This document shows positions 31,187-41,088 of a DNA stretch of 42,920 nucleotides, one piece after another; position 1 is the first letter of the stretch; every line of letters starts with the position of its first letter. Where the stretch lies: IMG/VR virus record IMGVR_UViG_2541047955_000001, positions 1 through 42,920 of that record, one strand, 5' to 3'. The notes under the pieces are model-generated. The model did not search any database, was not told the DNA's origin, and was given only the letters and a program-made list of their open reading frames with translations. Source of the stretch: a virus (lineage: Duplodnaviria; Heunggongvirae; Uroviricota; Caudoviricetes). Position numbers and translations under genes: made by a program.

Positions 31187-32599
31187 ATGGCTACTTGGCA
31201 ACAAGGAATCAACTCAGGCGGCTTTCTTGCTGGTATCGGTGGGCAAAACTCAAATGCGCCAAAGGCAAGTGATGTAAGTGAGGCGTTGGCCTATATTCGC
31301 CAGAACAACGAAATGGAGCGTTCAGGTCGCAATAACATCGGCCTTCAGGCGTTGCAGGGACTGGGTAGTGTCGCTCAAACATATCAAGCCGCAAAGCAAC
31401 AGGAAGCGGATGCTGCATTCCAAAAAGAATATGCGGCAGCCATCCAGTCAGGTGATCGGCAGCAGGTTCGAGATCTGATGACCAAATATCCTGGTCAATT
31501 AGAGAAAATTCAGTCTGGTATGAAGTGGGCAGACGAAGACCAGCGCAATTCTATCGGCACCTTAGCGGCTGGCGCTCGCCTTGCGGCCTCGTCTCCAGAA
31601 GCAATGCAATCATGGCTGCAAAACAACGCCAAGGAACTGACTCGCGTCGGTGTTGACCCTAACAGCGTTGCTCAGATGTATCAGCAGAACCCTTCAGGAT
31701 TTGGTGAGTTTGTTGATCACCTTGGGATGGCTGCTCTCGGTCCGATTGACTACTTCAATGTTCAGGACAAGATGGCTGGTCGTGAGATTGACCGAGGCAG
31801 ACTGGCAGAGACAATCCGCAGCAATCAGGCTGGTGAAGCACTTCAGGCGAGAGGGCAAAACCTTTCCTATCAGTCAGCAATGACTGGGCACAATATCGCA
31901 GCACAGCGCTTGGCTCTGGATCAGCAAGAGTTCGGGTTTAAGATGCAGCAAGCGCAGGAAAAGGCACAGCAGTTGATTAGCGAAGCACCTAAGCTGTCAG
32001 TAAACATGGAAAAAGGCATCGAGACAGCTGTAAACAATGCCACAGCATCATCAAACTCAGCCAATTCCATGAGTGCGCTTGCTCAACAGTTCAGAGCAGA
32101 AAAACCAACGACAGGTTTGTTCGGTAACGCACAGAACATGTTCGCAAAACTTACCGGAAGCGATACGACATTGCGTGATTTGCGCATTCGCCAAAATGCC
32201 CTTGTTAACAGTCAGGTTCTTAAATTCCTACCTCCCGGCCCAGCAACGGATAAAGACGTTGAGATCGTTCGACAGGGTGCGCCAACTGACATGGATAACC
32301 CTGAGACGGTCGCAAGATGGCTTGATGCAATGGCAAACCTTGAGCGACGAAACGCGCAGTTTAATGAGTTTAAAGCCGAGTGGATGAGCGCGAATGGCAA
32401 CCCTGGACAATCGCGTAATGGCGGTCAGATATTGGGGTTGGATGTTAAAAAAGGTGAATCATTGGGGAGTGCCGTTAAGCGGTATATGTCATTGAATACT
32501 GACGCAGCGCCAGCACAAGATTCGACAACTTCAGGAGAACCACGGAATCAGGTTGGATCATATACCTCAAAATCAGGCATTCAATTTACGGTGGAATGA
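31187..32599 (+). CDS. ejection protein gp20
   Basis: 470 aa; synteny and size match P22 gp20. Confidence 0.7.
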
Positions 32600-34437
32600 T
32601 GAAAGTAACTGCAAACGGTAAGACATTTACCTTTCCTGATGGTACGAGCACCGAAGATATTGGCACCGCCATTGATGAGTATTTTGCTGGTCAGGCTGTT
32701 CAGCAACAAACAGTTAATCAGGCCAATAATGCACCAACACGGGAAGAACCATCATTGATGCAACAAGCTGGCGATTGGCTCACTGGTGGTCAAAGTGCAG
32801 GGCAAATTGCAGAACAGGCTGGTCGTGGTCTGGTAAACATACCATTTGACGTATTGCAGGGTGGCGCAAGTCTGATTAATGCAATCAGTCAGGGGCTTGG
32901 TGGGCCAAAAGTTTTGGATGATGTTTATCGTCCAGTAGACAGACCGACAGACCCCTACGCTCAAGCTGGAGAAACAATTGGCGGGTATTTAGTTCCAGGA
33001 ATTGGAACGGCAGGAAGCATGGCTATTGGATCACTGGCAGAGGCCGCAAATCAGAAAGGCGATTTCGCACAAAATGCAGCTAAAAATGCCGGAGTTAACC
33101 TTGCCGCTCAGGGTGTTCTTTCCGCAGCAGCAAAGGGAATAGGGCGTGGAATAACGGCTATAAAAGGTGATATTGCGCCAGAAGTGGCGAAGAAAATTGC
33201 CACTTCAGAATCGATGGGCGTGACACCAATGACATCTGATGTTATCCCGCCGAAAAATGCTTTCACTCGCGGCCTTACTCAGGATGCCGAGGGGGCTTTG
33301 CTCGGGACAGGCTCAAAGCGAGCGGAGCAATATGCAACGCGTAGTAAGCTGGTAAGCAATTATTTTGACCGTTTTGGTGAGTACAACCCTGATGATGTGG
33401 TGAAATCTCTGACCACCACGTTAAGGGGGCGGAAGGATGCTGCTGGCGCTGTTATCAATGACGTCACCAATAAAATGGGTAATGCCGCAGTTGATACCAC
33501 AAATACCATGAATGCTCTGAATACAGCGATCGCAAGACAGGAACGGCTTGGGACTTCAGCCAATCAAAGCCTGCTTACATCCTTGCGTAACCTACGTGAA
33601 GAATTAGCAAACCCTGCAACTGATTTGGATGTTACGTTTGATCTCTTGCGTCAGCACAGAACAGCATTTAGATCTAATGTTCAGGGAGATTCTATGGTCT
33701 TCCCCAACCAGGCAAAAGCAGCTACCAATATGGTAGAGAATGCAATGTCAAAAGACCTTCGTAACGCAGTTGCTAAAAACCTCGGTGCATCAGACGCAGC
33801 AAAATACCTTAAAGCAAATTCAGATTATGCAAACGTTTATAATAAGGTGCTTAATAAAAACATTGCTAACAAGCTCAACAAGGCAAGCAGTGAAGCCAGT
33901 CCTGAACTTATAAATACCGTTGTATTAAGCAGAAAACCATCTGACGTGAAACGAATCTGGAGCGCATTGGATGATAAAGGGAAAGATGCTATGCGTGCAG
34001 CTTACGTCAGCAAAATAGCGGAAAAGGCCGGTGATTCTCCAGCCAAGTTCATCACTGAAGTTAATAAGCTGAAATCTCAGTCAGGTGGTGAAATTTACAA
34101 CACTATTTTTTCTGGAAAGCACATGAAAGAGCTTGATTCTCTTCATGAAGTTCTACAGCAAACAGCAAGGTCAGACACCGCAAATGTAGTAACTCAGACG
34201 GGGCAATCGCAAGCCAACCGGATAAGGACGATTGGCGCAACTGCGACTCTTGGCGTATCAATGGGGCTTGAGGCTGGCTTTGGTGCAATGATGCGTTTGT
34301 ATGAGTCTAAAGCAGCAAGGAATGCTCTCTTACGTTTGGCAAACACCAAAGCAGGAACACCAGCCTATGAAAGAGCGCTGAATAACGCCGCAAATGCCAT
34401 CAGACCAATACTTGCCAATGATGCAACTGATCGCTAA
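32596..34437 (+). CDS. ejection protein gp16
   Basis: 613 aa; N-terminus [22 protein letters not shown]; size and synteny match P22 gp16. Confidence 0.75.
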
Positions 34438-34458
34438 GGGTTGATGTCATGGATGTTG

Positions 34459-35097
34459 TTAATTGCGAATGGAATCGCGGAACTCTTTGCTTGATAGAAA
34501 AGGATCTGTTCTCCTTAACTCATCATAGTTTTTATTAAACTTTCTTGCTTCACCCGGGTATCTGTTGAACAAAACATTGCAGAAAAAAGAGAGCAATAAC
34601 TCACATATGAATGCTAATACCCTGAAAAATAAAGGTATAAAAAGAAGGGAAGGTTCATTGAAGTCTCTATTCCAAACAAAATAGACAATCATCCCGACAT
34701 ACCAAATTGATATCCCTATACTGATGATTGTTCCAACAGAGGTAACTACGATCCCGATTAAGTCGGACAGTCTGTTTGCCAGTAACTCATTTGAGTATCT
34801 TGCAATCATATACCGCCAACATTTTGCAATATCATCCTGATCTGTAGAGTCTTCTGGAATAGCTAGGCTTCTACATATTGAAGTAGCTCTTTTTTTCTCA
34901 ACTCTTTTTGAGAGCCATCCATTAAAGAGATACATCAACACCTGCGTTGCTATTCCTGCACCAAGTGATATCAAAGACATCCCCAAAAATCGCCATCCTG
35001 GAGATAGTGACTGGTACTGCCAAACAAAAAAAATTAAAAAACCCAATGAGCCTATGACATAGGCTGATGTATCGCTATATATATCTATTTTTTTCAT
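34459..35097 (-). CDS. integral membrane protein, possible SieA-like superinfection exclusion factor
   Basis: Track ORF 34459-35130 (GTG); start at ATG with AAGGAG RBS; ~4 hydrophobic helices; AT-rich; occupies the P22 sieA position. Confidence 0.55.
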   Translation of the reverse strand: MKKIDIYSDTSAYVIGSLGFLIFFVWQYQSLSPGWRFLGMSLISLGAGIATQVLMYLFNGWLSKRVEKKRATSICRSLAIPEDSTDQDDIAKCWRYMIARYSNELLANRLSDLIGIVVTSVGTIISIGISIWYVGMIVYFVWNRDFNEPSLLFIPLFFRVLAFICELLLSFFCNVLFNRYPGEARKFNKNYDELRRTDPFLSSKEFRDSIRN

Positions 35098-35147
35098 TGA
35101 GTAGCCACTCCTTAGTTTTGAGCAGAACACCGGATGATAATGTTTTG

Positions 35148-35399
35148 TTATGTGTCTTTTGGGATTCTATCCAGTAACTCGTTGGAAATTTTATCAAGTA
35201 AAGATTTTATTTGTTTAAGATCTAATGATTTGTCTACTGATGAGACGTCAGATGATAACGCATCCTCAAGAATTTGAACTATCTCTGAGTTCATAGATCG
35301 ACCGTTTCGTTTAGCCCTTTCCGCAATAGCACTACGCATGCCGTCAGGCATTCTAACCGTAAATCTTTCTATGAAATTTGATTCGTCTTTTTCTGACAT
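35148..35399 (-). CDS. ribbon-helix-helix regulator (Arc/Mnt superfamily)
   Basis: 83 aa from internal Met; FTVRMPDGMRSAIAERAKRNGRSMNSEIVQILEDAL is a typical RHH core. Confidence 0.6.
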   Translation of the reverse strand: MSEKDESNFIERFTVRMPDGMRSAIAERAKRNGRSMNSEIVQILEDALSSDVSSVDKSLDLKQIKSLLDKISNELLDRIPKDT

Positions 35400-35439
35400 T
35401 TTCTTATTCGCAAGGCATATGAGCAATAAAAAACACAGT

Positions 35440-35505
35440 AGCATCATATTGACATTATGAGCAATGGCATCATAATGGTGTCATGACATCATGGTGATGT
35501 CATTA
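35440..35505. promoter_or_regulatory. divergent promoter/operator of immI-like region
   Basis: TTGACA-17 nt-ATAATG overlapping the near-palindrome ATGGTGTCATGACATCAT (GTCATGAC core). Confidence 0.4.
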
Positions 35506-35519
35506 TGACGGAGATATTG

Positions 35520-35696
35520 ATGATGAGCGATGTTCTTTACAGTGGTCGTAAAAGTCAGAGTTTCCAGCTTCGTTTGCCAGCGCGAATGAAGGAGGAGATC
35601 AGACGCGTAGCTGAAATGGATGGAATTTCTATCAACTCTGCGATTGTGCAGCGACTGGCTAAAAGCCTGAGAGAGGAAAGAGCTAATGCCCAGTAA
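35520..35696 (+). CDS. Arc-like ribbon-helix-helix repressor
   Basis: Track ORF 35505-35696; start at ATGATG after GGAGA; FQLRLPARMKEEIRRVAEMDGISINSAIVQRL RHH core. Confidence 0.6.
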   Translation: MMSDVLYSGRKSQSFQLRLPARMKEEIRRVAEMDGISINSAIVQRLAKSLREERANAQ

Positions 35697-35769
35697 AAAT
35701 AGTGAAGCCCGGAAGTGCGCGAACACAAACCGGGCCTCTATGTCAGTAACCGTACTCAAGGAAACTAAC

Positions 35770-36408
35770 ATGAATATTGTAGCAAAATCAGATTATAACT
35801 TCCAAGGATTCACTTTTAACCCTGTAACAGAGGGCGGGTCTATCTGGTTTACCTCCACCGAACTAGCTAAGGCTCTCGGCTATAAAAAAACTGATGCCAT
35901 CAGCCAAATTTATGCCCGTAATGCTGACGAATTTTCCGACTCAATGTCATTGACCCTCAATATGAAGGTCAACGGAATAAACAATAGCTTACGTAACAAA
36001 TCGGTCAGAGTTTACTCACTCCGAGGCGCTCACTTGGTGGCGATGTTTGCTTCTACGCCCAAGGCCAAAGAGTTCCGCCGCTGGGTGCTGGATATTTTGG
36101 ATCGGCAGGCAGAATGCTCACCGATTGCAAAACAGTTTACTGACGAAGAACTGGTTAATCTCTGCTACTTACAATTGTGGATGGAGAAGAGTCAACAAAT
36201 GTGCAAACACATCTACCCTGGAATGAAGCAAATTGGTTCTGAGCTTTCAGGAAAGATTTACGATATTGCATATGAGACTCGCTACATGTCAGAAGAAACC
36301 AAGAAATCGCTTCTTCGTGAAATGAAGAATCTTGATCCCAACAATTTTGTCGTAAAGAACGCTCAGCCAATGCTGGCAAAACTTCGCGGCGAGGAATGGA
36401 TTCATTGA
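35770..36408 (+). CDS. Bro-N domain antirepressor-like protein
   Basis: Track ORF 35686-36408; start at MNIVAKS with AAGGA RBS; Bro-N signature FNPVTEGGSIWFTSTELAKALGY...RVYSLRGAHLVAMFASTPKAKEFRRWVLD. Confidence 0.7.
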   Translation: MNIVAKSDYNFQGFTFNPVTEGGSIWFTSTELAKALGYKKTDAISQIYARNADEFSDSMSLTLNMKVNGINNSLRNKSVRVYSLRGAHLVAMFASTPKAKEFRRWVLDILDRQAECSPIAKQFTDEELVNLCYLQLWMEKSQQMCKHIYPGMKQIGSELSGKIYDIAYETRYMSEETKKSLLREMKNLDPNNFVVKNAQPMLAKLRGEEWIH

Positions 36409-36495
36409 TTGGTGCACAGGACGGCGCAAAAGAAAACCGCCAGTGTGCTGCTGGCGGCCTATGTCACACCCTTACTACCACATAAGGAATGCCTA

Positions 36496-37224
36496 ATGAC
36501 TTTTAAGAATGTAGCAAACATCGGATCCGTTGTCACGGATAAAACCATTGATAGCCAGTACCTGTTAGAGATGGTCAATCATGCTCGTAGACAGTGCGGG
36601 GAAAAAGAAGTTCGCAATAACGACTTTATTGCACGCATTAAGGATGAACTTGAAGGTGAGCACTACGAAATTTTCGTAGTTCAAAAATCAAACAAGACAA
36701 CTTCTGAAAAAGTTGTTATGTCAATTAAGCAAGCCCTTCGAGTGGCTGCTCGTGAATCTAAAGCTGTTCGCCGCTCACTTGTAGACCAACTTGAAAGTAT
36801 GCAAGAAGCGCACATTAAAAGCGGTAAATCGTCGAGTGGACTTGTTGAGTATCGCCAGGCGCGAACACTGAAAATGACGGTTGAAGCTGTTACCAATCTG
36901 TTCGATCTGATGCCAAATCTTGCGCCTGAGGCAAAGCAGACAGCGGCAGCAAGTATAATCAACCCGCTCGTTGGTTTTAATGCAATACCTCTTCCGGCAA
37001 TAGAAGAGCATTACTACTCAGCAGGGGAGGTTGCAGAGCAGCTTGGAGTAACGGCCAACAAGATTGGTCGCATTGCTAACGCAAACAACCTCAAAACTGA
37101 GCAGTACGGGAAGTTCTTCCTGGATAAATCTGCGCATTCCAGCAAACAGGTGGAAGCATTCCGCTACAATGCGGAAGGTGTTAAAGCACTACAACACCTG
37201 ATTCATGGGAGTAATGTTGCATAA
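36496..37224 (+). CDS. antirepressor-like protein with KilAC-type C-terminal region
   Basis: Track ORF 36409-37224; start at MTFKNV with AAGGA RBS; C-terminal YSAGEVAEQLGVTANKIGRIANANNLKTEQYGKFF. Confidence 0.5.
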   Translation: MTFKNVANIGSVVTDKTIDSQYLLEMVNHARRQCGEKEVRNNDFIARIKDELEGEHYEIFVVQKSNKTTSEKVVMSIKQALRVAARESKAVRRSLVDQLESMQEAHIKSGKSSSGLVEYRQARTLKMTVEAVTNLFDLMPNLAPEAKQTAAASIINPLVGFNAIPLPAIEEHYYSAGEVAEQLGVTANKIGRIANANNLKTEQYGKFFLDKSAHSSKQVEAFRYNAEGVKALQHLIHGSNVA

Positions 37225-37445
37225 TGGCAAAGAAAAAATATGGCATTATGCCTCCAAGAATCAAAGGAAGAGCCAGGGTAAAAGGCGATGCTGGAAGGTA
37301 TCACATTCTTGGAGTTCTGTGGCATGAGAGAGCTTTAATTTTAAGTAGACCTCATGGGTACATTGAAAAGGTATCTATAGATAGAGTAGAGATTCTTCCC
37401 CTTACACCTGAAGAAGAAGAAACGTACGGACTTTTTGATAACTAA
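37224..37445 (+). CDS. hypothetical protein
   Basis: 73-aa ORF, translationally coupled to the upstream gene (TAATG), followed by a terminator. Confidence 0.45.
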   Translation: MAKKKYGIMPPRIKGRARVKGDAGRYHILGVLWHERALILSRPHGYIEKVSIDRVEILPLTPEEEETYGLFDN

Positions 37446-37452
37446 CCAACTA

Positions 37453-37480
37453 AACCCGCTTAATCGCGGGTTTTTTCTTT
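37453..37480 (+). terminator. intrinsic terminator ending the arc–ant-like operon
   Basis: Hairpin CCCGC-ttaatc-GCGGG followed by TTTTTTCTTTT. Confidence 0.5.
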
Positions 37481-37717
37481 TCTAAGGATATCAGCCGCAA
37501 CTTCTTTTACTCGTTCCGAGATTAATGAGGCCAGCCTCTCTTCTTCATCACGATACCCGCTTACAGGTGATGGTTTGGAGAGTGATTCTTCCATCGTAGC
37601 CACAATTTCGGAATTGATAGACCTGTTATTCATTTTTGCACGCTGTTTAATCTTGGCGTGCAACTCGTGCGTAAGCCTCAAGTGGAACTGCGCCTCATCG
37701 TATTTGCTGTACATCAT
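37460..37717 (-). CDS. Mnt-like ribbon-helix-helix repressor
   Basis: Track ORF 37460-37798; start at ATGATG after GGTGAGG; NRSINSEIVATMEESLSKPSPVSGYRDEEERLA resembles P22 Mnt as recalled. Confidence 0.65.
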   Translation of the reverse strand: MMYSKYDEAQFHLRLTHELHAKIKQRAKMNNRSINSEIVATMEESLSKPSPVSGYRDEEERLASLISERVKEVAADILRKEKTRD

Positions 37718-37859
37718 CAATGCCTCACCAAATGGGTGGAATGGCATCGTAAAACCTACTGTACAAATCAACAATCGTACCATTTCGGTATGTAACAAAT
37801 ACCAACCGTAGCCATGCTGCGGCGATTCCTTGTATCTGGAGCAAATTAAATGACAGACA

Positions 37860-38360
37860 TTACCTACTCAACAGATGGTCAGCAACCATGTTTGCTGCCT
37901 TATAAGCTATAGCCGCTTCATCAATGGTGTTGAATCTCCCAAGGGTTATGTTTTTACCTGAGACATTTATCTGAGCTTGCCATTGATTTCTGGCTTGACA
38001 GAAAGTTACCCCCTTGATTCCAGCATTGCTATTTCGAGGTCCGACATTTAATGCATTTACGACTCTGCTGACATCCCTAAGGTTTGAGATTGCGTTATTT
38101 CTTCTGTTTCTATCAATGTGGTCAATCTCTTGTTTGGGCCATTCGCCATATACATACAGCCAGGCAAGTCTATGTGCAAAATATCTTACGCCATCAATAT
38201 TAATTGCGTTATATCCATAAGAAATTGTGCCAGCAACTTTCCCAACAGCACCTCTGGCGCTTAATTTCTTTTTCCAAGTGAAAATTCCTGTTTCTTTATT
38301 GTAATCGAGAACCTCCATAAGGCGCTCCCGAGTTACTACCTCGTGACGTCTCTTACTCAT
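37860..38360 (-). CDS. HNH endonuclease with AP2-type DNA-binding domain
   Basis: Track ORF 37860-38402; start at MSKRRH after GGAGA; HNH motif [27 protein letters not shown]; C-terminal AP2-like [27 protein letters not shown]. Confidence 0.75.
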
Positions 38361-38373
38361 TATTTTCTCCGGA

Positions 38374-41088
38374 ATGTTTATTATGCCAGAACAATTATAC
38401 AACGTTGTTGTTTCACAACCAAGTCAGTTATTTACTTTAGCTCGCTCGTTTAAAGCAAATGCCAATGGCAAAATTTATATCGGTAAAATTGACACTGACC
38501 CTGTAAATCCTGAAAACCAGATTCAGGTTTATGTGGAGAACGAAGACGGTTCTCACGTTCCTGTTTCGCAACCAATAATCATTAACGCTGCCGGATATCC
38601 GGTATATAACGGACAGATTGCCAAATTCGTAACCGTGCAAGGCCATTCTATGGCTGTTTACGATGCTTATGGCACTCAGCAGTTTTATTTTCCAAATGTA
38701 TTAAAATACGATCCAGATCAGTTTGGCCCAGACTTCAAAGAGCAGTTATCTCAATCAGGAGCATACATTAATGATGATTCAAAAGGTGATGCATTAATTG
38801 GGGTAAGGCAGCCATTTACCGGGGCTGCAACTATAACTCAGCATGAAAACAATGCTCTTTTCTTAAATGTAAAACAATTTGGAGCAATTGGGGATGGGAA
38901 ATATCATCCATTATCTGAGTGGTTTTCTTCAATTTCTGAAGCAAAATCCTTATATCCTTTTGTTGACTCATTATCTCAGTCAATAGACTGGGCCGCGTGG
39001 CAAGCTGCCCTTAACACAGGAAAGGTTATTTATGGTACTGATAATGCGTATGTAATAACGGATACGTTAACACCTGTTTCTGGTGGTGGGATAATTTGTC
39101 TTGGTGTGGGCAAATGGGTCTCAGGATATACTGCAACATTTGCTCCTGATATTACCACAGGGACCACATTCCTGATGTACGGGGTAGGAAATAAAAAATA
39201 TACTGTAGATTGTGTTTCTAATATGGATGTTAGTGGTGGTGTGGTTTCTAACCCATCTTCCGAAGACCCGTATACAACAACGGCACCTGCGTCATCATAT
39301 GATTTATTGGATTTTACTAACGGTGATGCTAATGGGACTACAAGAGCCACGCTTAAACCATTCTCTGCCGCAATATTGATGCCTGAGACAGGATGTGTTC
39401 GCCTTGAGAACTTTCGTGTTGTTCCATATTTCAATGGGCTGGATGGTTATAAAGACATTGCAAATACCGGTCTTGGCGATGAGTGGGATGTAGGTATTTG
39501 GTCACGTGCGTCTTTTGGCAATGAATACCGCAATTTGCAGGTGGTTGGATACTGGCGCAAGACGGCACTTTTAAAAACGAACATTCCTGTATCTGGCACG
39601 CTGGCCGCTCAGGGCGAGGATGAAAACTATTATCACTGTAGATTCCAAGGATTCAAGGGTATTTCGATCCGCGCCCATGATGTATTCCGAATTACAGCGG
39701 TAACGTCCAGCACTATCGAAATACCATGGTCAGCAAGCCACACCTTCGAAACGTCCGGGGTTTTAAGATCTGGAGGCAGGAATTTCACTTATTCAGGATT
39801 ATCCGTATCCGGTGATAAGTTAGTATTTACTGGAGTGTCTAACGCTTCTGAGGCAACAGTAGGTTCTACTATACGGCGAAATGACATAGATAACTTTGGT
39901 ATGGCGGGAACGCAATTTTTCGATTGCTACATTACCAGCCTGTATCACCACACACATCTGCTTGCCACATCGCAATACCTGTCTCAACCATTCAGCCGAC
40001 CATCAGAGTGTATGGAGGTTTCAGGGGAACCAGTTCGCGGTGTACAGGTACATGCAGGAACCATTCAGGGATGGGATGATGTTCTTATTCATCTACATGA
40101 CTGTGGAAATATGAACTTTTACAGTACATATTTCGAAAGCCAGCAAGCATATGTAACTATAAATGGTGGTAATGCTATTGGTTATGGAGCACGTATGATA
40201 GCTTCCCGGCAATCAACAAGCTCATTACCATATGCAGCAGGGAATACTCGAGTGCTTAGAATGGTCGGGTGCTCTGAAGGCAATGGCGTTGACTGGGGTC
40301 CTGTATTTAACAACTATACAGGAGGAAGATATAATTCCGGAGACGGTGTATTTAACCCCCGCGATGCATTTATAGACCATAAATCTCTTCCTGAGCAGTC
40401 AGGAGGTGAGTCAAGACTCGTATCACAAAAAGGAAATGCCAGAGTAGTATGTGGTGTTGGTAAAACTGTACTGCTTGGACCAACGTCAGGAGATTGTAAT
40501 TTACAGAGTAATACTGGAAGTTTAAATATTAGAAGTGGGATAAGAGTAAGAATCGGTCACGCTGATGGAACAGACTGGTGGTTGGCAGATGCTAATAAAA
40601 TAGCTCCTGTTGATGATAATGTTAAAGCCATTGGACAGCCATCAAACAGATGCTCTGTTATTTATGCAGGAACCGGGTCAATCAATACATCAGATGAAAC
40701 TCTTAAAACAAGATATGATATTCTTAATGCAGAGCGTGATGCCGCTATTGAAATAAAGTCAGTCATCTATAAATTTAAATTTAATGACTCAATTAATAAC
40801 AAAGGAATTGAGTCGTCCAGGTATCATTTTGGCGTTGGCGCTCAAACCGTAGGGGATATTCTTAGAAAGCATGGTTTAAACCCTGAGCAATATGCTTTTT
40901 GGTGTTACGATGAATGGCCTGACGTATGGGATGAAGAGGTGATAACTGAAGAGAGCACAGATCCTGATACAGGTGAGAAAATTTATTCTCAATATAAAAC
41001 AGGAGATATGATTCTTGTAAAAAAAGCAGGAGGACGCTACGGAATTCGTTATGACGAATTGGCTATGTTTATATTAATGGCAATGTAG
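38374..41088 (+). CDS. tailspike: P22/Sf6-type head-binding domain, beta-helix depolymerase, C-terminal S74 chaperone domain
   Basis: 904 aa; conserved N-terminal head-binding region; FGAIGDGK beta-helix start motif; C-terminal SDETLK...[10 protein letters not shown]74 signature; true start may be ATG at 38383. Confidence 0.9.

What the first reader, a model, noticed from the sequence alone, without database searches (positions are those of the whole stretch)
34459..35399. AT-rich two-gene unit: ribbon-helix-helix regulator upstream of a 4-helix membrane protein (candidate superinfection exclusion)
A leftward RHH regulator gene (35148-35399) and an AT-rich membrane-protein gene (34459-35097) sit between the injection gene gp16 and the immI-like region. 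In P22 this position holds sieA, which blocks DNA injection by superinfecting phage. The protein has no motif I recognise and its composition differs from the flanking structural genes, suggesting separately acquired cargo. This is my best candidate in the window for an uncharacterised phage-exclusion function.
Basis: partly seen in the sequence, partly recalled or inferred. Interest (0 to 1): 0.6.

Follow-up and report, generated by a model that had tools for sequence, protein, structure and literature searches.

The report
Known SieA exclusion gene, type B
The membrane-protein gene is a near-identical copy (211 of 212 residues) of the type B SieA protein of E. coli prophage HS1, already shown by experiment to block DNA injection by P22-like phages, and the small gene beside it is an ordinary Arc/Mnt-family repressor of the neighbouring antirepressor region, so the finding is real but already explained.

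Summary
Both ORFs exist at the stated coordinates, and the AT-richness is real (GC 0.37 and 0.36, against 0.47 for the window).

**Membrane protein (34459-35097, minus strand, 212 aa).** It is not unknown.
- It matches PHROG 7745 "SieA-like" (E 1.6e-20) and P22 SieA (BLASTP 2e-24, about 26% identity).
- It carries the published SieA motif FxRYPxEAxxFNK.
- It is 211/212 identical to the E. coli HS prophage HS1 protein. Leavitt et al. 2024 (mBio, PMC10883804) cloned that protein and showed it excludes P22, L, MG40, MG178 and LP7. They call it "type B SieA".

**RHH gene (35148-35399).** It is a true Arc-family protein (Pfam Arc, 1.4e-17). It sits where P22 has mnt, divergent from an arc-like/antirepressor operon. 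Two tandem 21-bp palindromes overlap the promoters there.

**The two genes are not a fixed unit.** Among 5,426 complete E. coli genomes, this sieA allele is in 21, the RHH in 24, and the two together in only 13. Only a 38-42 bp leader with the ribosome-binding site is shared by all contexts.

**Verdict.** This is a correct functional guess, but the system is already characterised. Databases still label the protein "hypothetical", which is an annotation gap and not a discovery. Interest is low.

The parts
34459..35097 (-). sieA, type B (212 aa): inner-membrane superinfection-exclusion protein
   Evidence: PHROG 7745 SieA-like, E 1.6e-20. BLASTP to P22 SieA 2e-24, 28% over 148 aa. Global identity 42/164, with a 30-aa N-terminal extension. 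Motif FNRYPGEARKFNK. 211/212 identical to the E. coli HS prophage HS1 protein, which was tested experimentally in PMC10883804.
35098..35147 (-). 50-nt leader between the RHH stop codon and the sieA start codon. It holds the AAGGAG ribosome-binding site. Positions 35106-35147 form a conserved mosaic junction.
   Evidence: It is the only segment shared by the RHH>sieA, HTH>sieA, P63C/sieA and RHH>other-cargo contexts. No terminator-like hairpin was found in it.
35148..35399 (-). Arc-family ribbon-helix-helix repressor gene (83 aa) in the position of P22 mnt
   Evidence: Pfam Arc 1.4e-17. Best PHROG is 1287; it also hits 3178, 7906 and 795. 35% identical to P22 Mnt and the same length. It is divergent from the arc-like gene.
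35443..35476 (.). Overlapping face-to-face promoter-like sites. Rightward: TTGACA-16-CATAAT (35449-35476, 11/12 matches). Leftward: ATGCCA-16-TATGAT (35470-35443, 9/12 matches).
   Evidence: Consensus scan. The arrangement resembles P22 Pant/Pmnt as annotated in BK000583. Function is not shown.
35464..35503 (.). Two tandem 21-bp palindromic operator-like sites: ATGGCATCATAATGGTGTCAT and ATGACATCATGGTGATGTCAT
   Evidence: 2 matches in the window against 0.02 expected, and both are here. Inverted repeats I1 and I5.
35523..35696 (+). arc-like RHH gene (57 aa from the PGAP start)
   Evidence: Pfam Arc 1.1e-11. PGAP calls it an 'Arc family DNA-binding protein'.
35770..36408 (+). Antirepressor-like gene (Bro-N + P22_AR_C domains)
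   Evidence: Pfam PF10548 5.4e-14 and PF02498 1.3e-10.
32596..34437 (+). Gene 16 homologue (ejection protein), convergent with sieA. Its family is one of the two genetic targets of SieA.
   Evidence: 75% identical to P22 gp16. P22 G532 is conserved, and P22 P546 aligns with Ala. Escape mutations are described in PMC10883804.
31187..32599 (+). Gene 20 homologue (ejection protein)
   Evidence: Pfam Inj_translocase 3.6e-71. Only the N-terminal half resembles P22 gp20.
37460..37717 (-). Second Mnt-like RHH gene, the closer sequence relative of P22 Mnt
   Evidence: PHROG 795 at 6.5e-33, the same best family as P22 Mnt (2.6e-35). It shares the SKPSPVxGYR segment with P22 Mnt.

Best explanation
The window is a P22-like prophage of E. 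coli.

Gene 34459-35097 (minus strand) encodes a type B SieA. This is a four-pass inner-membrane protein made by the prophage, and it stops superinfecting P22-like phages from delivering their DNA. According to the published work on P22 SieA (type A), with phage exclusion also shown for the near-identical HS1 SieA (type B), it acts at the inner membrane. [quoted passage not shown] Whether it contacts them directly or masks a host partner is not settled in that work.

The likely topology has the N-terminus, the 59-110 loop and the C-terminal FxRYPxEAxxFNK motif in the cytoplasm. Only two short periplasmic turns remain, at about 29-36 and 143-149.

Gene 35148-35399 encodes an Arc/Mnt-family repressor in the mnt position of the immI-like region. 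Its probable job is to bind the tandem 21-bp palindromes at 35464-35503. That would shut the rightward arc/antirepressor promoter in the lysogen, as Mnt does in P22.

The two genes are neighbours through mosaic assembly and are not a dedicated pair. In this particular prophage only 50 nt separate them and no terminator was detected. The -35 element seen upstream of HS1 sieA is also missing here. sieA is therefore probably transcribed at least partly as the distal gene of the repressor's lysogen-expressed transcript.

Shown here: homology, near-identity to the tested protein, synteny, motif, hydropathy and independent assortment. Taken from the literature: exclusion phenotype, inner-membrane location, and escape mutations in genes 16 and 20. 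Inferred: topology, operator assignment and co-transcription.
For: SieA identity:
- PHROG 7745, E 1.6e-20.
- tblastn to P22 sieA in 38 phage records, 27% identity, E 3e-11.
- BLASTP 2e-24.
- Motif FNRYPGEARKFNK matches FxRYPxEAxxFNK (paper section 13).
- 30-aa N-terminal extension with an extra hydrophobic segment, as described for type B.
- 211/212 identity to the HS protein at NC_009800 325462-326100, which lies between the gene 16 homologue and the tailspike.

Function (literature):
- HS1 sieA plus 106 bp of upstream sequence, placed in Salmonella galK, fully excluded P22, L, MG40, MG178 and LP7.
- Escape mutations map to gp16 and gp20.

Synteny with P22 (16 - sieA - mnt - arc - ant - 9).

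RHH gene:
- Pfam Arc 1.4e-17.
- Operators and promoters.

Independence of the two genes:
- Genome counts are 21, 24 and 13 of 5,426.
- Alternative contexts are seen in HS, Z1322HEC0003, Ecol_276 and 730V1.

Co-transcription inference:
- No terminator between the genes.
- HS1 has TTGATA-17-CATTAT. In the window the homology, and with it that -35 element, ends about 46 bp upstream of the ATG.
Against: - No experiment was done on this exact allele (L62 here, I62 in HS1) or in this genomic context.
- The link between the RefSeq gene ECHS_RS01600 and the paper's locus tag EcHS_A0321 is inferred from position, uniqueness, length and identity figures. It was not read from a record.
- The N-terminal hydrophobic segment is weak on a 19-residue hydropathy scan, and the AlphaFold model is of low confidence (pLDDT 61). 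The four-pass topology is therefore a prediction.
- Which of the three Arc-family proteins in the region binds the palindromes is unknown. The closer sequence relative of P22 Mnt is the other gene, at 37460-37717.
- A promoter-like site inside the RHH gene (35217-35188, 9/12 matches) could give sieA its own transcript.
- Promoter-like sites in the region are no more frequent than in shuffled sequence.
Confidence: 0.88

Rival explanations
1. The RHH protein is the dedicated regulator of the membrane-protein gene, and the two form one co-inherited exclusion cassette.
For: The genes are on the same strand with a 50-nt gap and no terminator-like site. They have similar low GC (0.361 and 0.368). 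They are adjacent in 13 complete E. coli genomes at 99% identity or more.
Against: 8 of 21 sieA-bearing genomes lack this RHH, and 11 of 24 RHH-bearing genomes lack sieA. In HS1 the upstream gene is a cI-like HTH repressor (PHROG 4), and in Z1322HEC0003 it is a divergent P63C gene. HS1 SieA works without any RHH. The operator-like palindromes are found only at the arc/antirepressor promoter, and none lies within 3 mismatches in the sieA leader.
Confidence: 0.08
2. The pair is a toxin-antitoxin or abortive-infection module, with an RHH antitoxin neutralising a membrane-damaging toxin.
For: RHH antitoxin families give secondary hits (FitA-like_RHH 4e-08, HicB 0.008). The arrangement is a small regulator followed by a membrane protein.
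Against: sieA occurs alone in 8 genomes. Chromosomal P22 sieA has little or no effect on growth, and the block is at DNA entry and not cell death (PMC10883804, and abstract). There is no PADLOC hit. The RHH is best explained by its divergent arc/ant partner and operators.
Confidence: 0.02
3. The gene is a SieA homologue but is silent or ineffective in this prophage, because the upstream exchange removed its own -35 element.
For: Homology with HS1 ends about 46 bp upstream of the ATG. The HS1 TTGATA-17-CATTAT site has no counterpart passing the scan in the window.
Against: The ORF is intact and at least 98.4% identical at the DNA level across 21 genomes. The exact protein is seen on 935 contigs, which argues for purifying selection. 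Read-through from the repressor promoter is unobstructed.
Confidence: 0.07

Closest known systems
Type B SieA of E. coli HS prophage HS1 (EcHS_A0321; Leavitt et al., mBio 2024, PMC10883804)
   Same: 211/212 residues are identical. Length is the same at 212 aa. The position after the gene 16 homologue is the same, and so is the 38-46 bp leader with the ribosome-binding site.
   Different: There is one conservative substitution (L62 here, I62 in HS1). The upstream neighbour is an Arc-family RHH gene here, whereas HS1 has a cI-like HTH gene, so the -35 region differs.
Type A SieA of Salmonella phage P22
   Same: It is homologous (BLASTP 2e-24). It shares three core hydrophobic helices, the cytoplasmic FxRYPxEAxxFNK motif, the AT-rich composition (0.337) and the slot between gene 16 and mnt. 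The published exclusion spectrum of types A and B is indistinguishable.
   Different: Identity is only about 26%. The window protein has 30 extra N-terminal residues with a fourth hydrophobic segment, and 16 extra C-terminal residues. In P22, sieA is separated from mnt by orf59a, a terminator and its own promoter PsieA.
P22 Mnt repressor (immI region)
   Same: It has an Arc-family RHH domain, is 83 aa long, is 35% identical, is transcribed leftward and divergently from arc-ant, and has overlapping face-to-face promoters with palindromic sites.
   Different: The best PHROG is 1287, not 795. The C-terminal half is unrelated to Mnt's, and the beta-strand residues differ (R/T/R against H/N/R in the alignment). 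The palindromes are 21 bp and tandem, whereas BK000583 annotates a single 23-bp Mnt-binding operator in P22. A second gene in the window, 37460-37717, is the closer Mnt relative.

Membership tests
SieA superinfection-exclusion proteins | Detectable sequence homology to P22 SieA | tested here: met
   PHROG 7745, E 1.6e-20. BLASTP 2e-24. tblastn 3e-11 to annotated sieA in 38 phage records.
SieA superinfection-exclusion proteins | Conserved motif FxRYPxEAxxFNK near the C-terminus | tested here: met
   FNRYPGEARKFNK at residues 177-189. P22 has FGRYPGEANGFNK. The motif is defined in PMC10883804 section 13.
SieA superinfection-exclusion proteins | Encoded in a P22-like prophage between the homologues of genes 16 and 9 | tested here: met
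   gp16 homologue at 32596-34437 (75% identical to P22). Tailspike with the P22 head-binding domain at 38383-41088. The structural module is 96% identical to P22-like Escherichia phages.
SieA superinfection-exclusion proteins | Multi-pass inner-membrane protein | tested here: inconclusive
   Hydropathy shows three strong hydrophobic segments and one weaker N-terminal one. The AlphaFold model is helical but of low confidence. Membrane location cannot be tested here; it was shown for P22 SieA only.
SieA superinfection-exclusion proteins | Blocks DNA injection of P22-like phages when expressed alone | not testable with these tools
   This was shown for the 211/212-identical HS1 protein. It was not tested for this allele.
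SieA type B (as opposed to types A and C) | About 30-aa N-terminal extension relative to P22 SieA, holding an extra hydrophobic segment, and close identity to HS1 SieA | tested here: met
   30-residue N-terminal overhang in the global alignment. Hydrophobic segment at 10-28. 99.5% identity to HS1. Type C sequences were not retrieved for comparison.
Mnt-type immI repressor | Arc-family ribbon-helix-helix N-terminal domain | tested here: met
   Pfam PF03869, 1.4e-17, residues 11-50.
Mnt-type immI repressor | Divergent from arc-ant, with operator(s) overlapping the antirepressor promoter | tested here: met
   The palindromes at 35464-35503 overlap the -10 element and start region of the TTGACA-16-CATAAT site. 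Binding was not tested.
Mnt-type immI repressor | Orthology to P22 Mnt, including the C-terminal tetramerisation region | tested here: not met
   The best PHROG is 1287, whereas P22 Mnt is 795. The C-terminal halves do not align convincingly. The gene at 37460-37717 meets this feature instead.
Known anti-phage defence systems in PADLOC; curated Pfam and NCBIfam families | A hit to any curated model for the membrane protein | tested here: not met
   No PADLOC hit. No NCBIfam hit. No Pfam hit above cut-off. P22 SieA itself also has no PADLOC or NCBIfam hit, so this reflects missing models and not a lack of membership.

The most novel reading that the evidence does not exclude
In this prophage lineage the type B sieA gene may have lost its own -35 element. 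It would then be expressed as the distal gene of the Mnt-position repressor's lysogen transcript, which would tie exclusion to the state of the immI switch.

The 38-42 nt leader with its ribosome-binding site (35106-35147) may be a portable junction. Behind it, P22-like prophages swap alternative envelope-targeted cargo: SieA-B here, a 62-aa hydrophobic peptide in strain 730V1, and a signal-peptide-like protein of PHROG 2651 in strain Ecol_276. Some of these could be further, untested exclusion factors.
Probability: 0.3. Interest if true: 0.3.

Novelty: already known. Interest (0 to 1): 0.12.

Why it matters
Scientifically there is little new. The gene's function, location and genetic targets were published in 2024 for a protein that differs by one conservative residue.

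The practical value lies in annotation. This exact protein is seen on 935 public contigs, and its 90%-identity cluster has 189 members from E. coli, Salmonella and Klebsiella. Every named copy is labelled "hypothetical protein". Pfam, NCBIfam and PADLOC have no SieA model.

Naming it correctly would flag lysogens likely to resist P22-like phages and generalised transduction. That matters for phage-typing, phage therapy and genetic work in E. coli and Salmonella.

A side observation is that the same leader fronts alternative small envelope proteins in sister prophages. This gives a short list of candidates for further exclusion factors.

Tried and rejected
**Family and RNA searches that gave nothing**
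- Pfam gave only sub-threshold noise for the membrane protein: DUF3918, EI24, DUF3810 and DUF2530, all below their cut-offs.
- NCBIfam and PADLOC gave nothing, even for P22 SieA itself.
- Rfam at a permissive threshold found no RNA family in 34000-38600. A P22 sar-like antisense RNA could therefore not be confirmed.

**DNA searches**
- Megablast of the locus against 50,697 phage records matched only the last 128 bp of gene 16. No sequenced phage in that collection carries type B sieA.

**Structure prediction**
- The single-sequence AlphaFold model had pLDDT 61 and pTM 0.32. I used it only for helix positions.
- I did not run a fold search, because matches to a low-confidence model are meaningless.
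- Near-identity to an experimentally tested protein already settles the question.

**Ideas I tested and dropped**
- Could the RHH operator recur in the sieA leader? The 21-bp palindrome pattern has no third match within 3 mismatches anywhere in the window.
- The alternative GTG start at 35130 and the ATG at 35447 are unlikely. Neither has a ribosome-binding site, the 35447 start would lie inside the promoter/operator region, and PGAP and most public gene calls use the shorter forms.
- The toxin-antitoxin, holin and housekeeping-membrane-protein readings were rejected (see the rival explanations).

Full report

Yes. On the minus strand there is an ORF at 34459..35130. Its internal ATG at 35097 (MKKIDIY...) is preceded by AAGGAG and gives a 212-aa protein. 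Upstream on the same strand, an ORF at 35148..35447 has an ATG at 35399 that gives 83 aa. NCBI's PGAP annotation calls the same 639-bp gene in sister genomes. The 83-aa form is the one recorded on 570 public contigs.

The 83-aa protein is a genuine ribbon-helix-helix protein. It matches Pfam Arc at E 1.4e-17 and 63.7 bits, against a 20.4-bit cut-off.

The 212-aa protein has four hydrophobic segments, at about 10-28, 37-58, 110-142 and 149-178. The N-terminal one is the weakest. A single-sequence AlphaFold model of low confidence (pLDDT 61) places helices in matching positions.

The two genes are AT-rich. GC is 0.368 and 0.361, against 0.464 for gene 16, 0.499 for gene 20 and 0.468 for the window. 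Only 2% of 639-bp windows are as low.

**2. What is the setting?**

The window is a P22-like prophage of E. coli.
- Its head and ejection module is about 96% identical to Escherichia phages Louie, Dewey and IME10.
- It has an integrase near the left end and a tailspike with the P22 head-binding domain.
- Gene 32596-34437 is 75% identical to P22 gp16.
- Gene 31187-32599 carries the P22 injectosome translocase domain of gp20.

To the right of the finding lie an arc-like RHH gene (35523-35696) and a Bro-N/P22_AR_C antirepressor gene (35770-36408). Two unassigned genes follow, then a second Mnt-like RHH gene (37460-37717, minus strand), an HNH-AP2 gene, and the tailspike.

P22 itself has the order 16 - sieA - orf59a - mnt - arc - ant - 9. 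The finding therefore occupies the sieA and mnt positions.

**3. What is the membrane protein?**

It is SieA.
- It matches PHROG 7745, "superinfection exclusion SieA-like", at E 1.6e-20.
- tblastn finds annotated sieA genes in 38 P22-type phage records at 27% identity.
- BLASTP against P22 SieA gives 2e-24.
- A global alignment gives 42 identities over the 164 residues of P22 SieA. The window protein has a 30-residue N-terminal overhang and a 16-residue C-terminal overhang.
- It carries FNRYPGEARKFNK, an exact instance of FxRYPxEAxxFNK.

Leavitt et al. (mBio 2024, PMC10883804) describe this situation. [quoted passage not shown] Types B and C have an N-terminal extension that holds an extra transmembrane segment. 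The FxRYPxEAxxFNK motif is the best-conserved feature. Type B is typified by prophage HS1 of E. coli HS.

The E. coli HS gene lying between its gene 16 homologue and its tailspike encodes a protein 211/212 identical to the window protein. The single difference is L62 in the window and I62 in HS1.

The paper cloned HS1 sieA with 106 bp of upstream DNA into Salmonella galK. P22, L, MG40, MG178 and LP7 were fully excluded, and the HK620 ejection-protein hybrid escaped partially. This phenotype was indistinguishable from that of P22 SieA.

My equation of the RefSeq gene with the paper's locus tag EcHS_A0321 is an inference. It rests on position, uniqueness in the genome (one place), length and the identity figures.

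**4. How does it work?**

What follows is taken from the literature, and is not tested here.
- It blocks DNA injection and the K+ efflux that goes with it. This phenocopies loss of an ejection protein.
- The authors' model is that SieA interferes with assembly or function of the gp20/gp16 conduit at the inner membrane. Their alternative is that it masks a host partner such as YajC.

What follows is my inference from hydropathy and charge. The N-terminus, the lysine/arginine-rich 59-112 loop and the C-terminal tail with the motif face the cytoplasm. That leaves only two short periplasmic turns.

The resident prophage's own gp16 keeps the Gly equivalent to P22 G532. It has Ala where P22 has P546. 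Its gp20 C-terminal half is unrelated to that of P22. I draw no conclusion from these differences.

**5. What is the RHH gene, and is the pair a unit?**

The RHH gene sits back-to-back with the arc-like gene. The 105-bp spacer holds three kinds of site:
- a strong rightward promoter-like site, TTGACA-16-CATAAT, at 35449-35476;
- an overlapping leftward promoter-like site at 35470-35443;
- two tandem 21-bp palindromes, at 35464-35484 and 35483-35503. These occur nowhere else in the window (2 matches against 0.02 expected).

This is the layout of P22 Pant/Pmnt with its operators. The simplest reading is an immI repressor of the antirepressor operon.

By sequence it is not the Mnt orthologue. Its best PHROG is 1287. 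P22 Mnt and the window's other RHH gene (37460-37717) both fall in PHROG 795. Its C-terminal half differs from Mnt's.

The pair is not a conserved cassette. Among 5,426 complete E. coli genomes:
- this sieA allele is present in 21;
- the RHH with its operators is present in 24;
- the two are adjacent in 13.

The other contexts are as follows.

| Strain | What lies next to the gene |
|---|---|
| HS1 | A cI-like HTH repressor gene lies upstream of sieA |
| Z1322HEC0003 | A divergent P63C gene lies upstream of sieA, and there is no immI region |
| Ecol_276 | The slot after the RHH holds a signal-peptide-like PHROG 2651 protein |
| 730V1 | The slot after the RHH holds an unannotated 62-aa hydrophobic ORF |

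The only segment common to all these arrangements is a 38-42 nt leader that includes the AAGGAG ribosome-binding site (35106-35147). This is a typical mosaic junction.

**6. Expression in this context (inference)**

HS1 has a TTGATA-17-CATTAT promoter-like site 40-68 bp upstream of sieA, inside the fragment that sufficed for function. In the window, homology starts only at the -10-like CATTAT. The -35 element is replaced by the 3' end of the RHH gene.

No terminator-like hairpin separates the two genes. I therefore think sieA is at least partly read through from the repressor's promoter, which would suit expression in the lysogen.

There are caveats. A weak promoter-like site inside the RHH gene (35217-35188) is an alternative source of the transcript. 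Consensus promoter matches in this region are no more frequent than in shuffled sequence.

**7. Comparison with what is known, and novelty**

The membrane protein is a member of the SieA family, type B. Every sequence-level defining feature I could test was met. The functional features were demonstrated on a protein that differs by one conservative residue.

The RHH is an Arc-family repressor that works like Mnt by position and operator layout. It fails the orthology test.

Nothing here lies outside published knowledge. The one gap is annotation. The exact protein is on 935 contigs, and it and its 189-member cluster are labelled "hypothetical protein" wherever a name is given. No Pfam, NCBIfam or PADLOC model exists for SieA.

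**8. Verdict**

Novelty: already known. Interest: 0.12.

The most novel reading that my evidence leaves open is co-transcription with the immI repressor, plus a leader-defined slot for alternative envelope cargo. It is modest in both probability and interest.

Noticed in passing
window 35106-35147; L004 3306-3494 (-); L005 3163-3549 (-): The same 38-42 nt leader with the AAGGAG ribosome-binding site fronts different small envelope-type genes in sister prophages. Here it fronts SieA-B. In E. coli 730V1 it fronts an unannotated 62-aa hydrophobic ORF starting at GTG. In Ecol_276 it fronts a protein of about 128 aa with a signal-peptide-like N-terminus (PHROG 2651, function unknown). These are possible alternative exclusion cargo.
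   Followed up: partly
window 37460-37717 (-): This is a second Mnt-like RHH gene, convergent with the end of the antirepressor operon. It is the closer sequence relative of P22 Mnt (PHROG 795 at 6.5e-33, and it shares the SKPSPVxGYR segment). The region therefore carries three Arc-family genes, and which one controls which promoter is unknown.
   Followed up: partly
window 37860-38360 (-): An HNH_3 + AP2 domain gene, of homing-endonuclease type, is wedged between the second RHH gene and the tailspike start. It is absent from the corresponding loci of UTAK-1, HS and Ecol_276, where about 100 bp separate those two genes.
   Followed up: partly
window 35776-35819 (-): Two leftward promoter-like sites (the best is TTAAAA-16-TATAAT, 10/12 matches) lie just inside the 5' end of the antirepressor gene and point back at the arc-ant junction. 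This is the position of Psar, the promoter of the sar antisense RNA, in P22. Rfam gave no match in the region.
   Followed up: partly
window 41600-42920: The GC content drops sharply to 0.29-0.32 beyond the tailspike. The stretch holds an ORF resembling the N-terminus of a P4-type integrase (41623-41961, assigned by eye and not searched). It also holds a winged-helix/MarR-like ORF that runs off the window end (42396-42920, minus strand). This is probably the prophage boundary and adjacent island.
   Followed up: no
E. coli records NZ_CP146561.1 and NZ_CP146567.1 (39.9 kb): Two 39.9-kb records filed as plasmids of hospital-wastewater E. coli carry the same gp16-sieA-RHH-arc cassette at 99% identity. 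Their size suggests circular P22-like phage genomes, not plasmids.
   Followed up: no
window 38383-41088 (+): The tailspike combines the P22 head-binding domain (3.7e-64) with a C-terminal Peptidase_S74 intramolecular-chaperone domain and a short endosialidase-like piece. The receptor-binding middle part has no Pfam match.
   Followed up: no
window 32596-34437 and 31187-32599: The resident gp16 has Ala at the position of P22 P546, a SieA-escape site, and keeps the G532 equivalent. Residues of about 250-456 of the resident gp20, which would hold the escape sites, are unrelated to P22 gp20.
   Followed up: partly
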